From a virus (lineage: Duplodnaviria > Heunggongvirae > Uroviricota > Caudoviricetes): DNA of 12,890 bases. The stretch covers positions 1-12,890 of IMG/VR virus record IMGVR_UViG_2703718777_000025; one strand, written 5' to 3'. The notes below the pieces were generated by a model. The model had not been told where the DNA came from. It was given only the letters and a program-made list of their open reading frames with translations, and ran no database searches. A program made the translations under genes and the position numbers. Below, in pieces: positions 1 through 7,936 of the stretch (position 1 is its first letter; the number at the start of each line of letters is the position of its first letter).

Positions 1-342
1 ATGATGAAAAAAAGTATTCTGGCGTTTCTGTTACTCACCAGTTCTGCAGCGGCGCTGGCTGCACCGCAGGTGATTACCGTCAGTCGTTTTGAAGTGGGTA
101 AAGACAAATGGGCGTTTAATCGCGAAGAGGTGATGCTGACTTGCCGACCGGGTAATGCTTTGTATGTTATTAATCCGAGTACCCTCGTGCAGTATCCTTT
201 AAACGATATCGCACAAAAGGAAGTTGCCAGTGGGAAGACCAATGCCCAACCCATTTCGGTGATTCAGATTGATGATCCTAACAATCCCGGCGAAAAAATG
301 AGTCTGGCACCGTTTATAGAACGAGCTGAAAAACTCTGTTAA
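1..342 (+). CDS. yebY: Small secreted protein with N-terminal signal peptide, YebY-like (host chromosomal gene)
   Basis: 113-aa ORF starting [22 protein letters not shown] (hydrophobic core plus AxA-type cleavage site), followed by a terminator. The YebY name is recalled from memory, not searched. Confidence 0.7.
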
Positions 343-376
343 TTACCTAAAATAGCCTTTTGATTTCCAATAAAAA

Positions 377-413
377 AACCGCCTCAGTTCTTTCACCAGA
401 ACGGGCGGTTTTT
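377..413 (+). terminator. Rho-independent terminator after the yebY-like gene
   Basis: A-run, then stem CCGCC(379-383)/GGCGG(404-408) with inner stem GTTCT/AGAAC, then T-run 409-413. Confidence 0.7.
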
Positions 414-500
414 AACATTTCAGCTGATGACCACCACGCTTTTTATTGACCATTTTGCACGCAAACTGGAAAACCTGGCGTCGTCATCTATTCTTAAAGG

Positions 501-603
501 GCAAGGCAACTAAGCCTGCATTAATGCCAACTTTTAGCGCACGGCTCTCTCCCAAGAGCCATTTCCCTGGACCGAATACAGGAATCGTATTCGGTCTTTT
601 TTT
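501..603 (+). ncRNA. sdsR: sdsR (RyeB) sigma-S-dependent small RNA
   Basis: Starts GCAAGGCAACTAAGCCTGCATTAATGCC, matching my recollection of SdsR. Ends with an 8-bp-stem hairpin CCGAATAC/GTATTCGG (572-594) and a T-run to 603. Possible -10 CTATTCT at 488-494. RyeA/SraC would be antisense across this. Confidence 0.7.
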
Positions 604-734
604 AATTGTATTTAAAATCAATTAGTTGCAAACGTCTCCCCGAAATTCCCCGAAATTTACTCGAATTTCTGTATTCCGGTCTTTTTTGGTTATATCACAA
701 CCAAAATACATTTAACAATCCATTTACGTAAAAA
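604..734. other. Candidate attL junction region
   Basis: Lies between the sdsR terminator and the int stop codon. Contains an 11-bp tandem direct repeat (T)CCCCGAAATT x2 at 637-658 and a degenerate second copy of the sdsR 3' end, GTATTCCGGTCTTTTTT at 671-687 versus GTATTCGGTCTTTTTTT at 587-603. The exact core cannot be set without attR. Confidence 0.4.
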
Positions 735-2164: not shown

Positions 2165-2353
2165 TCACGAGGACAGAAGTTTCTCGCAATTAAAATTTAT
2201 CAGCTTTACTTTCTGCTCTCTGGACACGCCTGCTTCTTTTTTCCCTGAGAGCATTTTTTCGCATTCTGATTTCGTTAATTTAGATTTTGAATATCTTGTC
2301 CAGTTAGTAGGAGTGCCACCTTCTTTTTCAATAGTGGCAGTTATTTTATACAT
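2165..2353 (-). CDS. Small hypothetical protein, YdaC-like, translationally coupled to lar
   Basis: 62-aa reading (MYKITATIEKEGG...) starting at ATG 2351-2353 with GGAGGTG upstream. This ATG lies inside the last codons of lar (GGA GGT GTT CAT GTA TAA). The longer 86-aa track ORF has no ribosome binding site. Confidence 0.6.
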   Translation of the reverse strand: MYKITATIEKEGGTPTNWTRYSKSKLTKSECEKMLSGKKEAGVSREQKVKLINFNCEKLLSS

Positions 2354-2540
2354 GAACACCTCCATTATTATTTCCAGTAGTTCGTTTATTCCATCTTTCG
2401 AGTGCTTCTTTTTCACTTCCACCATAGCCAGTTCGGGATTCGCATCCGTTGCATTTTGCCCGGTAATATCCTGAAATTGCTTTCACTGTAACAGATGGAC
2501 AACCACAAAACGGACATGGTTTAACATCGTCATATCTCAT
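2346..2540 (-). CDS. ralR: Restriction alleviation protein Lar/RalR (zinc-binding CxxC...CxxC)
   Basis: MRYDDVKPCPFCGCPSVTVKAISGYYRAKCNGCESRTGYGGSEKEALERWNKR, 64 aa from ATG 2538-2540, matching the Rac RalR length. Upstream in-frame ATGs at 2552 and 2579 are alternatives; none has a strong Shine-Dalgarno. Confidence 0.8.
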   Translation of the reverse strand: MRYDDVKPCPFCGCPSVTVKAISGYYRAKCNGCESRTGYGGSEKEALERWNKRTTGNNNGGVHV

Positions 2541-2596
2541 AATTTTTGTCATAAAAACTGTCTCGCGTTGGCGGTGCATTACACCGCCAGGCTGAA

Positions 2597-6457: not shown

Positions 6458-6531
6458 GTTTTTCTCCTTAATTAAGGTTGAGCGAATACCTGCCATTTCT
6501 GGCATAAATTCAGTTTCGAATAGTCAATTAA

Positions 6532-6702
6532 TTAAAGTTCATGTGCCATCTGGTCTTTTTCGGCACAAGATTCACTGCAATATTTTCTCGGTTCGTCTTT
6601 TGATAAAATCCCGTGCATGAAGTGAAGCATTCTTTCAATAGCTTTGCTTTCTTCAACGTCTTTTTTGCAAAGGTGGTAAGCACATTTTATTTTCTTAGTC
6701 AT
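6532..6702 (-). CDS. ydaE: YdaE-like small cysteine-rich (zinc-binding) protein
   Basis: Not in the supplied ORF track. My own translation of the minus strand gives 56 aa [56 protein letters not shown]. Its start codon overlaps the kilR stop codon. Confidence 0.85.
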   Translation of the reverse strand: MTKKIKCAYHLCKKDVEESKAIERMLHFMHGILSKDEPRKYCSESCAEKDQMAHEL

Positions 6703-6923
6703 CACCATGACTCCGCCTTTACAGGTAAACCATCACGACCGAGGAAGACTTTAATCATGCGGTCAGTAATGCATGTTTTTGTGGTCAGGTTACGAATATA
6801 TAGTTTTCGCTTTTTAATATTGTTTGCCGAGGCAATATATGTCCGGCCTTCATGAAGAACATAATCGCCAGGAGTCACACACTGACGTGGTATTTCATCA
6901 GTTCCGAAGTGATGTGCAATCAT
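6702..6923 (-). CDS. kilR: KilR cell-division (FtsZ) inhibitor
   Basis: 73 aa from [32 protein letters not shown], matching Rac KilR. GGAG ribosome binding site 6 nt upstream of ATG 6921-6923; the longer track ORF starts inside that site. Confidence 0.9.
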
Positions 6924-7096
6924 AATTATCTCCATTTTTACAAATGAACTTTGTTGATGCGGTGCCTGGTGCCTCCAGGTGACTGCAACCAGTTAACAAT
7001 TACAGTCGGCTTTCCCACCCAAACCAATAAGGACTAACATGACTTTTAACTGTGCCACGTGCGCTTAGCCGCATTCACCGCATCACAAAATTCACT

Positions 7097-7145
7097 TAAA
7101 AAAGGGCGGACATCAGCCGAACTTCAAGAAAAAACTGATGCCGCC
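7097..7145 (-). terminator. Candidate intrinsic terminator for leftward (minus-strand) transcription, upstream of kilR
   Basis: Stem GGCGGACATCAG(7105-7116)/CTGATGCCGCC(7135-7145), 11 bp with a one-base bulge and an 18-nt loop. On the minus strand it is followed at once by U6 (reverse complement of A-run 7098-7103). Confidence 0.35.
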
Positions 7146-7324
7146 AGGACTACACACAGCAATGTCGTTATTTACAACCGGAGGCGCACTCCCACCATTT
7201 AAATTTAACAGACAAGACCGACTCTTTATGGATATCGGAAATGCGCCTTCGTGTTGTGCCCGGTTTTATTTCACCACCTCCGGGCTTCGGTGGTTTTCGT
7301 TATTCCCCAACAGCGAAAATTAGG

Positions 7325-7675
7325 TTAATCTGAATATCCCCCAACAGATGGAAGGATTTTTCTATGCTCGAAAATCAGACCTTGAAGGTTGCCTGCCCTG
7401 ATTGCGGCAGTGAGATGCTCAAGCGGCCCGATGATTTTGACTTTGACACTAATTTCGTTGGCGTTAGTTGTGCCGAATGTGGTCGAGAAATCACTAAGGA
7501 CGATGTTATTAAGCAAGGAAAAAATGTAGTTCAGAAACAAGTCAATGACATGCTCCGGAACACCCTCAAAGGCAGCGGGTGGAAGTTTAAATAACCCATG
7601 TATCGCACTAAAGTGTTCCGTTACTTCTGTAGCGTCTATGGTAAGTTTGATAGGCGCTATTTTCACTCCCGTCAT
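7325..7675 (-). CDS. Hypothetical 116-aa protein, first ORF downstream of a strong leftward promoter
   Basis: ATG 7673-7675 with GAGGTG 6 nt upstream; about 70-nt leader from the promoter at 7752-7780. Fully overlaps the zinc-ribbon ORF on the other strand, so one of the two may be spurious. Confidence 0.45.
   Translation of the reverse strand: MTGVKIAPIKLTIDATEVTEHFSAIHGLFKLPPAAFEGVPEHVIDLFLNYIFSLLNNIVLSDFSTTFGTTNANEISVKVKIIGPLEHLTAAIRAGNLQGLIFEHRKILPSVGGYSD
7364..7594 (+). CDS. Small zinc-ribbon protein (CPDCG...CAECG), function unknown
   Basis: 76 aa, ATG 7364 with GGAAGGA 7 nt upstream. Two CxxCG motifs about 23 residues apart are typical of a zinc ribbon. Lies entirely inside the antisense ORF 7325-7675. 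Confidence 0.5.
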   Translation: MLENQTLKVACPDCGSEMLKRPDDFDFDTNFVGVSCAECGREITKDDVIKQGKNVVQKQVNDMLRNTLKGSGWKFK

Positions 7676-7751
7676 ACATCACCTCAAATCTTTTCCCTTA
7701 ACGCCGGGTGGCGGAACTAAAACCTACAGCGCCGTGCTGTTCTCGATAGAA

Positions 7752-7780
7752 ATATTAGTGACGCGTATATTTTAAGTCAA
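7752..7780 (-). promoter_or_regulatory. Near-consensus sigma-70 promoter reading leftward (candidate pL analogue)
   Basis: On the minus strand TTGACT (plus coordinates 7780-7775), 17-nt spacer, TAATAT (7757-7752). It sits just past the racR terminator and points toward the 116-aa ORF and the kilR-recET block. Confidence 0.5.
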
Positions 7781-7876
7781 CAGCAAGGCGTATTATATTT
7801 TTGATTTTGTAACTATGTAAATGTTTTTTCAAGGGAAAAATATTAGTTATACAGCTGATTTGCAGAAGTTATGGCA

Positions 7877-7910
7877 CAAAAAAAACCGACTAAGACGTCG
7901 GTTTTTTTTT
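7877..7910. terminator. Bidirectional rho-independent terminator downstream of racR
   Basis: A8 run, stem CCGAC/GTCGG, T9 run (AAAAAAAACCGACTAAGACGTCGGTTTTTTTTT), 27 nt past the racR stop. Confidence 0.75.
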
Positions 7911-7936
7911 GTTGTGGGTGGGGTAGTGAGCGGTGG

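What the first reader, a model, noticed from the sequence alone, without database searches (positions are those of the whole stretch)
6936..7936. Accessory locus between kilR and racR: two fully overlapping antisense ORFs where sieB sits in Rac
In classical Rac the kilR-racR interval holds sieB (superinfection exclusion), and in lambda the equivalent cI-proximal slot holds rexAB. No sieB-like ORF is present here. A 76-aa zinc-ribbon ORF on the plus strand (7364-7594, SD GGAAGGA) lies entirely inside a 116-aa minus-strand ORF (7325-7675, SD GAGGTG). The minus-strand ORF is served by a near-consensus promoter (TTGACT-17-TAATAT, 7780-7752) about 70 nt upstream. A chance zinc-ribbon signature (CPDCG...CAECG) in an antisense frame is unlikely, and so is a 116-codon open antisense frame with its own SD and promoter. 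So this is either a real overlapping gene pair or a protein gene with a dedicated antisense regulator. Immunity-region slots like this are classic sites for exclusion, abortive-infection or toxin modules, so this is the best candidate in the window for an undescribed system.
Basis: partly seen in the sequence, partly recalled or inferred. Interest (0 to 1): 0.75.

Follow-up and report, generated by a model that had tools for sequence, protein, structure and literature searches.

The report
Two proteins on opposite strands
In place of sieB, this prophage carries a 367-bp cassette that appears to encode two proteins from the same codons read on opposite strands; the pair is conserved across many enterobacterial phages, which would make it an unusually old antisense overlapping gene pair, though its function is unknown.

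Summary
Both ORFs exist as described. They sit in a 367-bp cassette (7321-7687) that replaces sieB-ydaF-ydaG of K-12 Rac.

The plus ORF (7364-7594) belongs to the catalogued ECs_2282 zinc-ribbon family (NCBIfam NF047912) and is under clear purifying selection (pN/pS 0.25; invariant Cys codons).

The minus ORF (7325-7675) reads the exact reverse-complement codons, the frame most prone to chance "shadow" ORFs. It does not behave like a shadow:
- It is intact in 66 of 67 distinct homologues, down to 23% identity.
- It keeps its own Shine-Dalgarno and start codon.
- Its 24-30 N-terminal codons outside the overlap are under purifying selection (pN/pS 0.57).
- Synonymous codon choice in the plus gene preserves minus-frame residues site by site.

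The pair moves as a unit between three phage contexts. The minus ORF usually runs with the host operon (30 of 37 flanking ORFs) and the zinc-ribbon gene against it, behind the same leader architecture as Rac sieB and ending in its own covarying terminator hairpin.

RefSeq annotates only the plus frame; phage records annotate only the minus frame. The best reading is a real antisense gene pair whose two strands are expressed in alternation (lysogeny versus lytic growth). A role in phage exclusion is inferred, not shown. All evidence is computational.

The parts
7321..7687 (.). 367-bp cassette that replaces sieB-ydaF-ydaG of K-12 Rac
   Evidence: blastn: window 6501-7316/7320 and 7688-7720 match K-12 Rac and prophage H1, and the stretch between them does not. 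The exact cassette is in only 2 of 5426 complete E. coli genomes.
7364..7594 (+). ECs_2282-family zinc-ribbon protein gene (76 aa): CPDCG...CAECG followed by a C-terminal helix
   Evidence: NF047912 scores 81.6 bits against a cut-off of 37. RefSeq annotates it in H26. pN/pS is 0.25. The four Cys are invariant, or nearly so, across the aligned lineages. AF2 gives pLDDT 69: zinc ribbon plus helix 45-71.
7350..7356 (+). Shine-Dalgarno GGAAGGA of the plus ORF
   Evidence: Read from the sequence. A purine-rich SD is present before the start codon in all deep lineages examined.
7325..7675 (-). 116-aa ORF (PHROG 29546 family) in the codon-aligned antisense frame, first ORF of the early-left operon. 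Residues 1-27 are encoded outside the plus ORF.
   Evidence: Intact in 66 of 67 distinct homologues. The homologue in HK639 is gene 45, directly after pL and putL. The N-terminal extension has pN/pS 0.57, the lowest of the six frames. Site-specific synonymous constraint in the plus frame preserves minus-frame residues. AF2 gives pLDDT 69.7.
7680..7685 (-). Shine-Dalgarno GAGGTG of the minus ORF
   Evidence: A strong SD 5-8 nt before a conserved ATG in 13 diverse lineages whose farther-upstream flanks differ.
7629..7663 (+). Hairpin B plus T-run: probable intrinsic terminator of the plus gene, embedded in codons about 5-16 of the minus ORF
   Evidence: dG -14.9. It sits at a fixed position (stop+33 to +36) in most lineages, with fully compensated stems in different lineages and a U-rich tail on the plus strand only.
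7258..7297 (+). Hairpin A: two mutually exclusive helices (GCCCGG/CCGGGC and CCACC/GGTGG followed by TTTT) in the leader upstream of the plus gene. Identical in the K-12 sieB leader.
   Evidence: The helix assignment is my reading of the sequence; the covariation was judged by eye only.
7303..7347 (+). Two copies of the motif TYCCCCAACAG (7303-7313 and 7337-7347) between hairpin A and the SD
   Evidence: One or two copies (TTCCACAGTCAA, TTCCCCAACAG, TTCTCACACAGCCAG) precede the SD in most lineages. K-12 sieB has CCCCTACAG and CCCTTACAG in the same places.
7688..7720 (-). 33-nt conserved leader with hairpin CCGCC-ACCC-GGCG, also found upstream of K-12 ydaG
7752..7821 (-). Two tandem sigma-70-like promoters (TTTACA-18-TATAAT at 7821-7792; TTGACT-17-TAATAT at 7780-7752): candidate early-left (pL-type) promoter region
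   Evidence: They lie in the immunity module shared with H1. Repressor control is not shown: no shared operator was found.
7099..7196 (-). kilS sRNA homologue in the kilR 5' region, downstream of the cassette on the early-left transcript
   Evidence: 98.7% identity to K-12, where kilS is annotated. A DicF-like Rfam match at 7104-7158 scores 37.6 bits, below the gathering score of 48.

Best explanation
The slot holds a small mobile accessory cassette that encodes two proteins from the same codons on opposite strands.

Plus strand: a stand-alone zinc-ribbon protein (ECs_2282 family). It has its own SD, the same leader architecture as Rac sieB, and its own one-directional terminator hairpin. It runs antisense to the phage operon it sits in.

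Minus strand: a 93-155-aa protein (116 aa here). It has its own SD and ATG, and it is read as part of the host operon, which here is the early-left operon leading to kilS-kilR-recET. Its N-terminal 24-30 codons lie outside the plus gene. The rest are the reverse-complement codons of the plus gene.

Shown: both frames are maintained, each with its own selection signature, and the pair moves as a unit.

Inferred: the two transcripts are convergent and fully complementary, so their expression should be mutually antagonistic through transcriptional interference and duplex RNA. That would give the zinc-ribbon protein in the lysogen and the minus-strand protein once the lytic operon fires.

More speculative: the pair is a superinfection-exclusion or defence moron in which the lytic-strand product is either a second exclusion factor or the phage's own escape factor.
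For: Plus frame:
- pN/pS is 0.25.
- The minus-frame third position is frozen (ACA/GCA only) at the Cys codons of the loci examined.
- An orphan copy survives without the minus ORF.

Minus frame:
- It is open in 66 of 67 distinct homologues, down to 23% identity.
- Chance openness over 18 lineages has log10 P of -12.7 with local codon usage and -5.2 with a conservative gene-family null. The unconstrained extension adds -12.0.
- SD and ATG are conserved.
- The distance from the plus stop to the minus ATG is 81 nt, with variants of 75 and 84 nt, all multiples of three.
- The extension has pN/pS 0.57 (CI 0.43-0.73).
- Four-fold sites are 43.1% identical between deep lineage pairs, against 33.2 +/- 1.5% under shuffling.
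- Arg67 uses AGG/CGG in 10 of 12 lineages (reads as Pro in the minus frame). Pro24 uses CCC in 13 of 14 (Gly). Pro12 uses CCT/CCG in 17 of 19 (Arg).
- Plus-synonymous differences give more similar minus residues (BLOSUM62 0.68 against 0.36 +/- 0.06).

Unit and orientation:
- The same pair occurs after pL/put or N, upstream of baseplate genes, and after a tape-measure gene.
- Flanking ORFs are co-directional with the minus ORF at 30 of 37 flanks.

Plus-gene transcription signals: a covarying terminator hairpin and a sieB-type leader.

Functional leads:
- It replaces sieB.
- 17 of 20 plus-family members weakly match the PADLOC candidate PDC-M14A.
- Phage Fc02 olg1/gene 10 has the same architecture and was shown by experiment to exclude phages (PMC9936078).
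Against: - There are no expression data for either strand.
- Inside the overlap the minus frame has pN/pS 1.13, and the plus synonymous rate is not visibly reduced (0.65 against 0.63 in the extension). Minus-frame constraint there is therefore weak, or masked by saturation.
- Part of the conserved minus N-terminal motif coincides with hairpin B and its U-run.
- The shuffle nulls ignore residual shared ancestry.
- Both AF2 models are only moderate (pLDDT about 69-70), and neither has a structural neighbour.
- No plus-strand promoter reached the scan threshold upstream of the plus ORF.
- Exclusion or defence function rests on position, analogy and one remote HMM hit.
- The minus family has no PADLOC hit.
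Confidence: 0.62

Rival explanations
1. Only the zinc-ribbon protein is functional. The minus ORF is kept open and translated as a 'pass-through' frame, so that the operon transcript crossing an antisense moron stays covered by ribosomes and escapes Rho-dependent polarity. Translation matters, but the minus product's sequence does not.
For: The minus frame has pN/pS 1.13 in the overlap, and the plus synonymous rate is not reduced. Flanking ORFs are mostly co-directional with the minus ORF. The one copy outside a phage operon, L008, has lost it. The C-terminal 13-20 residues are dispensable: the Klebsiella-type group is truncated by a TCA at plus codon 2.
Against: The extension has pN/pS 0.57, including codons beyond the hairpin (0.58). 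Asp14 is invariant and Ala91 and Arg93 nearly so in 43 sequences. Site-specific synonymous codon choices preserve particular minus residues. A hydrophobic periodicity is conserved at low identity. AF2 gives a compact fold that joins the extension to the overlap.
Confidence: 0.22
2. The minus ORF is an untranslated shadow ORF produced by the RNY-like codon bias of the zinc-ribbon gene. Phage annotators called the wrong strand.
For: It is the codon-aligned antisense frame, which is the most prone to chance ORFs. Plus third positions are strongly pyrimidine-rich. In this single sequence the openness has a chance of 0.25-0.5.
Against: SD and ATG are conserved at a fixed distance. A 24-79-codon extension with no plus-frame constraint is open in every lineage (log10 P about -12). 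Purifying selection and length differences in multiples of three are seen there. Census: 66 of 67.
Confidence: 0.06
3. Only the minus ORF is real. It is an ordinary early-operon or tail-module gene, and the zinc-ribbon frame inside it is the artefact.
For: Phage GenBank records annotate only this strand. It is co-directional with its neighbours in most contexts.
Against: By plus codon position, substitutions are 94/57/226, so minus-frame position 1 is the most variable. The Cys codons and the frozen minus third positions need plus-frame selection. A plus SD and start are present in all lineages examined. The L008 orphan keeps only the plus frame. About 100 clusters of small stand-alone homologues exist.
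Confidence: 0.03

Closest known systems
Pseudomonas phage Fc02 olg1 (sie1) / gene 10 module (PMC9936078)
   Same: A small soluble protein (7.9 kDa) is encoded on the lysogen-transcribed strand. It is overlapped in antisense by an early gene of the lytic operon next to the immunity region. Both products excluded superinfecting phages when expressed.
   Different: Different phage type (Mu-like, Pseudomonas). Sequence relatedness was not tested here. Fc02 Olg1 is not described as a zinc ribbon. In Fc02 the forward transcript also carries the repressor gene. Expression and function are shown for Fc02 and not for this cassette. Here the pair is a mobile unit found in three kinds of context.
sieB of Rac, lambda and P22, with Esc and the sas antisense RNA
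   Same: The cassette occupies the sieB slot, in the same orientation (antisense to the early-left operon), behind the same leader architecture as Rac sieB. In P22 an antisense RNA from the lytic strand switches sieB translation to Esc, the phage's own escape factor (PMC12197685). The proposed antagonism between the strands is modelled on this.
   Different: There is no sequence similarity to SieB. The plus protein is a 76-aa zinc ribbon, against 162 aa for Rac SieB. Here the antisense strand encodes a conserved protein rather than only a small RNA.
Embedded antisense overlapping genes of E. coli O157:H7 and Pseudomonas aeruginosa (for example PMC9927249, PMC8850804)
   Same: A second ORF embedded antisense in an annotated gene, with its own SD and evidence of selection (abstracts only).
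   Different: The Pseudomonas pair is described in its abstract as evolutionarily novel. This pair is conserved to 23% identity across Enterobacterales and moves between phage contexts. The ORF that annotators treat as the 'mother gene' differs between databases.
NCBIfam NF047912 (ECs_2282 family) and PHROG 29546
   Same: The two products are members of these catalogued families.
   Different: Both families are of unknown function, and neither library says anything about an antisense partner. No paper in the searched library mentions ECs2282.

Membership tests
NCBIfam NF047912, ECs_2282 family putative zinc-binding protein (plus ORF) | HMM score at or above the curated cut-off of 37 bits over the full model | tested here: met
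   81.6 bits, model positions 2-60 of 60. RefSeq uses this name for the identical gene in H26.
NCBIfam NF047912, ECs_2282 family putative zinc-binding protein (plus ORF) | Two CxxC pairs (zinc-ribbon signature) | tested here: met
   CPDCG and CAECG. C14, C36 and C39 are invariant and C11 is conserved in at least 90% of 20 sequences. All four are kept in the deep lineages. Metal binding itself is not testable here.
PHROG 29546 (minus ORF) | Significant profile match over most of the protein | tested here: met
   The window protein scores E 3.2e-6 over residues 9-97. 37 of 43 family members match, best E 1.7e-61.
SieB superinfection exclusion protein | Sequence homology to SieB | tested here: not met
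   tblastn of K-12 SieB against the window: best E 4.8. No SieB family appears among the Pfam, NCBIfam or PHROG hits.
SieB superinfection exclusion protein | Position and orientation: between the first early-left genes and kil, antisense to the early-left operon, behind the sieB leader | tested here: met
Lysogeny/lytic antisense overlapping exclusion module (Fc02 olg1/gene 10 type) | Two protein-coding ORFs overlapping in antisense next to the immunity region, one of them in the early lytic operon | tested here: met
   Placement in the early operon is by position only.
Lysogeny/lytic antisense overlapping exclusion module (Fc02 olg1/gene 10 type) | Opposite-strand transcription in the lysogen versus after induction | not testable with these tools
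   No transcriptome data are available. The plus gene has its own terminator and leader.
Lysogeny/lytic antisense overlapping exclusion module (Fc02 olg1/gene 10 type) | Exclusion of superinfecting phages by the products | not testable with these tools
   Needs plaque assays.
Type I toxin-antitoxin (small toxin plus antisense RNA) | Small hydrophobic toxin and a non-coding antisense RNA | tested here: not met
   The plus protein has no hydrophobic stretch long enough to span a membrane (sequence). The antisense strand carries a conserved, selected ORF.
PADLOC candidate defence system PDC-M14 | Match to component A and presence of the partner component(s) | tested here: inconclusive
   17 of 20 plus-family members match PDC-M14A (best E 5.4e-8), but only over profile positions 18-89 of 152. 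The minus family has no PADLOC match.
HK022/HK639-type put antiterminator RNA in the minus-strand leader | Two-stem put-like RNA between pL and the first gene | tested here: inconclusive
   HK639 has an annotated putL-like RNA directly before the homologous ORF. The 76-nt window leader shows no evident similarity to it and no Rfam match.

The most novel reading that the evidence does not exclude
The cassette is an ancient, horizontally mobile 'two-faced' gene. One stretch of about 230 bp encodes, codon for codon on opposite strands, a lysogen-expressed zinc-ribbon exclusion or defence protein and a lytic-operon protein that counteracts or complements it. Antisense transcription acts as the built-in switch between them. 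This would be a self-regulating exclusion/escape module of a kind so far shown by experiment only once, in an unrelated Pseudomonas phage.
Probability: 0.3. Interest if true: 0.85.

Novelty: new variant of a known kind. Interest (0 to 1): 0.72.

Why it matters
Fully overlapping antisense protein-coding pairs in bacteria are few and contested, and at least some reported cases are evolutionarily young. This one is small and deeply conserved, and it recurs in three phage contexts. It can also be dissected cleanly: single-base changes stop one frame while staying synonymous in the other.

It also exposes a systematic annotation conflict. RefSeq calls one strand and phage GenBank records call the other, so each database hides one of the two genes.

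If the two strands are expressed in alternation, as proposed, the cassette would show how a prophage can pack a lysogeny-specific function and a lytic-specific function, plus the switch between them, into about 370 bp.

Tried and rejected
- Rfam has no family for either hairpin or for the minus-strand leader.
- I looked for a put-like RNA by comparing with HK639 putL and saw no similarity.
- I looked for operator repeats shared between the minus-strand promoters and the repressor/cro intergenic region and found none, so repressor control of these promoters is not shown.
- The literature search for ECs2282 and KilS found no occurrence of ECs2282; the KilS term returned only unrelated matches.
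- Stop-codon avoidance alone is weak evidence once the gene's own low frequency of A at third positions is allowed for.
- The rate comparison of plus synonymous sites against the extension is uninformative because divergence is near saturation.
- My crude ORF-based flank test mislabelled Edno5. The deposited annotation shows the minus ORF co-directional there.
Full report
**Observation**

The window is a Rac-like prophage. On the minus strand it carries int, xis, ralR/RalA, recT, recE, a racC-like gene, ydaE and kilR. These are followed by an HTH repressor on the minus strand and by ydaS-like and ydaT genes on the plus strand.

Both ORFs of the finding exist at the stated coordinates, with the stated Shine-Dalgarno sequences. 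The TTGACT-17-TAATAT promoter match is real but scores only 9 of 12. A better match, TTTACA-18-TATAAT (11 of 12), lies at 7821-7792. SieB is absent.

**Mosaic structure**

- Window 6501-7320 is 98.7% identical to K-12 Rac. This stretch covers kilR, the kilS sRNA region and the sieB leader.
- Window 7688-7720 is a 33-nt leader that also precedes K-12 ydaG.
- The 367 bp between them replace K-12 sieB-ydaF-ydaG.
- From 7688 rightwards, the immunity module is shared with other prophages that lack the cassette.
- The minus-strand promoters therefore belong to the immunity module and serve the whole early-left operon.
- The exact cassette occurs in 2 of 5426 complete E. coli genomes, and 31 more carry diverged versions.

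**The plus ORF**

It is a member of NCBIfam NF047912, the "ECs_2282 family putative zinc-binding protein" (81.6 bits against a cut-off of 37), and RefSeq annotates it under that name. Homologues occur in E. coli, Cronobacter, Hafnia, Klebsiella, Citrobacter, Yersinia and Atlantibacter. An exhaustive profile search finds 103 clusters at 50% identity, nearly all small stand-alone proteins of 58-109 aa. AlphaFold gives a zinc ribbon followed by a long helix (pLDDT 69), with no informative structural neighbour.

**The frame relationship**

The minus codons are the exact reverse complements of the plus codons. This is the classic "shadow" frame, which is open whenever the sense gene lacks TTA, CTA and TCA codons. 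For this one sequence, openness has a chance of about 0.25-0.5. The question therefore had to be settled by comparison with related sequences.

**Comparative evidence for the plus frame**

- On a tree of 46 unique sequences, substitutions by plus codon position are 94/57/226.
- pN/pS is 0.25 (CI 0.18-0.31).
- At the four Cys codons, the minus frame in the loci I examined shows only Thr (ACA) or Ala (GCA). Its four-fold-degenerate third position is frozen, which only plus-frame selection explains.
- An orphan copy in Leclercia (L008) sits between arsBC and an AraC/EamA pair. It keeps the plus ORF while the minus frame is broken by stops.

**Comparative evidence for the minus frame**

1. Census. 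Across 194 loci there are 67 distinct plus proteins, and 66 have a spanning antisense ORF. That is 14 of 15 clusters at 70% identity. It includes lineages where the minus protein is only 23-40% identical: Edno5, KP12, 2b LV-2017, and the Brenneria, Rahnella and Yersinia prophages.
2. Chance openness. Over 18 lineages, log10 P is -12.7 with local codon usage and -5.2 under a deliberately conservative gene-family null. The lineages are not fully independent, so these figures overstate the significance.
3. The N-terminal extension. The minus ORF extends 24-79 codons beyond the plus stop, where there is no plus-frame constraint. This part is open in all lineages (log10 P about -12.0).
   - It begins at a conserved ATG preceded by a strong SD, while the sequence farther upstream is unrelated between lineages.
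   - The distance from the plus stop to the ATG is 81 nt in 65 of 70 unique sequences, with variants of 75 and 84 nt.
   - pN/pS is 0.57 (CI 0.43-0.73), the lowest of the six frames. It is 0.58 for the codons beyond the hairpin.
   - It carries a conserved motif (h.h[ST]hD[TA][ST] followed by an amphipathic helix), with Asp14 invariant in 43 sequences.
4. Constraint inside the overlap. The plus gene's synonymous sites are constrained site by site.
   - Four-fold sites between lineage pairs below 55% amino-acid identity are 43.1% identical, against 33.2 +/- 1.5% under synonymous shuffling (0 of 1000 shuffles reach the observed value).
   - The choices make sense in the other frame:

     | Plus residue | Codons used | Minus-frame reading | Chance per lineage from local usage |
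     |---|---|---|---|
     | Arg67 | AGG/CGG, 10 of 12 | Pro in both | 0.21 |
     | Pro24 | CCC, 13 of 14 | Gly | 0.12 |
     | Pro12 | CCT/CCG, 17 of 19 | Arg in both | 0.58 |

   - Plus-synonymous differences yield more similar minus residues (BLOSUM62 0.68 against 0.36 +/- 0.06). They are also more often synonymous in the minus frame as well (9.6% against 5.7 +/- 0.6%).
   - Leu is CTC in 35 of 49 codons, against 13% in long ORFs of the same loci.
5. Structure. AlphaFold on a 43-sequence alignment gives a compact beta-alpha-alpha-beta-beta-alpha model (pLDDT 69.7). The N-terminal strand, encoded outside the overlap, is modelled as a strand (residues 10-14) alongside two strands encoded inside the overlap. 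No known fold matches it.

**Counter-evidence**

- Inside the overlap the minus frame has pN/pS 1.13, and the plus synonymous rate is not visibly reduced. Divergence is near saturation, and this frame arrangement inflates the ratio in any case.
- Part of the N-terminal motif coincides with a conserved hairpin (see below).
- The shuffle nulls do not model phylogeny.

**Context**

Phage annotators call the minus frame.

- In HK639 it is gene 45, directly after pL and the putL-like antiterminator RNA.
- In Edno5 it is gp50, and Klebsiella phage ST974-OXA48phi18.2 carries it as QBP28601.1.
- In other prophages it follows an N-peptide gene.
- In the Brenneria prophage and the prophage-like contigs L099 and L100 it sits immediately upstream of the sheath-initiator, Baseplate_J and wedge genes, sometimes after Arc, Bro-N or ORF6N genes. 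In KP12 it follows Rha and KilA genes and lies upstream of unannotated ORFs and a tail-fibre gene.
- In Klebsiella phage 2b LV-2017 it follows the tape-measure gene.

In all these loci the antisense zinc-ribbon frame is intact, with a start codon (ATG in all but L100, where it is TTG). In every annotated context examined the minus ORF runs in the same direction as its neighbours. In the cruder ORF-based count, flanking ORFs are co-directional with it at 30 of 37 flanks. The pair thus behaves as one mobile cassette, with the zinc-ribbon gene antisense to the host operon.

**Signals of the plus gene**

- About 35 nt after its stop lies hairpin B (window 7629-7660, dG -14.9). It is followed by a U-rich tail on the plus strand only.
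- Hairpin B sits at the same position in most lineages, with fully compensated stems: GTAGCGTCTAT/ATAGGCGCTAT, GGTAGTGTCT/AGACACTACC and AGTAGTATCG/CGATACTACT.
- I read hairpin B as the plus gene's one-directional terminator, embedded in the minus ORF's first codons.
- Upstream lie hairpin A (two mutually exclusive helices, 7258-7297) and one or two copies of a CCCCWACAG / TTCCACAGTCAA motif just before the SD.
- K-12 sieB has the same leader: hairpin A is identical and both motif copies are in place. So sieB and this gene are alternative cargoes behind one regulatory leader.
- No plus-strand promoter reached the scan threshold, so the promoter itself has not been located.

**Mechanism**

Shown:
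- The locus is dual-coding.
- Each ORF has its own translation signals.
- The plus gene has its own terminator.
- The pair is mobile as a unit, and the minus ORF usually shares the orientation of the host operon.

Inferred:
- The plus gene is expressed like sieB, from the prophage.
- The minus ORF is translated from the early-left or late operon transcript.
- The two RNAs are convergent and fully complementary, so each strand's expression should depress the other's.

More speculative:
- An exclusion or defence role. The grounds are the sieB slot and leader, the remote PDC-M14A similarity in 17 of 20 family members, and the Fc02 precedent. In Fc02, a 7.9-kDa protein from the lysogen strand and the antisense-overlapping early lytic gene 10 both exclude phages (PMC9936078).
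- P22 sieB/esc/sas shows that lytic-strand antisense RNA can switch a sieB locus to production of an escape factor (PMC12197685).

**Main rival**

The minus ORF may be only a translated pass-through frame that protects the operon transcript from polarity while it crosses an antisense moron. This fits the co-directionality and the loss of the ORF in the non-phage orphan copy. It fits less well with the protein-level signals listed above.

**Verdict**

Each product family is already catalogued separately (NF047912 and PHROG 29546), both with unknown function. I found no description of the two as a conserved antisense pair. Function is unproven, and every result here is computational.

Noticed in passing
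window 7099-7196 (-); Rfam matches 7104-7158 (-) and 6916-7115 (-): The kilR 5' region carries the homologue of the K-12 sRNA KilS. It gives sub-threshold Rfam matches to DicF (37.6 bits against a gathering score of 48) and STnc100 (37.7 against 47). This suggests KilS is a DicF-like sRNA placed upstream of kilR, as DicF is placed upstream of dicB in the Qin prophage (the Qin comparison is from my own knowledge).
   Followed up: partly
window 7303-7313 and 7337-7347 (+); K-12 locus L003 about 2110-2165: A tandem CCCCWACAG motif between a switch-like hairpin and the SD is shared by the leaders of Rac sieB and of this zinc-ribbon gene, and by most family members in other phages. It may be a regulator-binding site or an RNA element. 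No explanation was found.
   Followed up: partly
RefSeq records H26 and H78-H107; phage records HK639, Edno5, KP12, 2b LV-2017 and ST974-OXA48phi18.2: There is a systematic annotation conflict. RefSeq annotates only the zinc-ribbon strand at this locus, and the five annotated phage GenBank records examined annotate only the opposite strand. Each collection hides one of the two ORFs.
   Followed up: yes
window 7726-7740 (-): A small GC-rich hairpin followed by AGGTTTTAGTT lies between the minus-strand promoters and the minus ORF. It looks like a terminator and could be an attenuator in the early-left leader, which would imply antitermination. In HK639 the homologous ORF is preceded by a putL-like antiterminator RNA whose annotated 3' end overlaps the ORF start.
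   Followed up: partly
window 7878-7909: A perfect 13-bp inverted repeat flanked by A8 and T9 (AAAAAAAACCGAC...GTCGGTTTTTTTT) forms a bidirectional terminator between the repressor gene and the early-left promoters.
   Followed up: no
window 1-625: The left end has SraC/RyeA and SdsR/RyeB sRNA genes (Rfam 179 and 118 bits) next to the integrase. So this Rac-like prophage sits at the ryeA/ryeB locus. From my own knowledge, this is not where K-12 Rac is integrated.
   Followed up: no
window 2169-2347 (+) and 2346-2579 (-): RalA antitoxin sRNA (Rfam 219 bits) lies next to a 77-aa CxxC ORF at the ralR/lar position. This is probably the Rac type I RalR/RalA toxin-antitoxin pair, but the ORF itself was not scanned.
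   Followed up: no
L008 4001-4231 (Leclercia adecarboxylata NCTC13032): An orphan zinc-ribbon gene (53% identical) lies in a non-phage context between arsBC and an AraC/EamA pair, co-directional with its neighbours. It is the only homologue in which the antisense frame is broken.
   Followed up: partly
L101 803-1834: In one lambdoid prophage carrying the pair, a eukaryote-type Ser/Thr protein kinase gene (Pfam Pkinase) sits between the CI repressor gene and the N gene.
   Followed up: no
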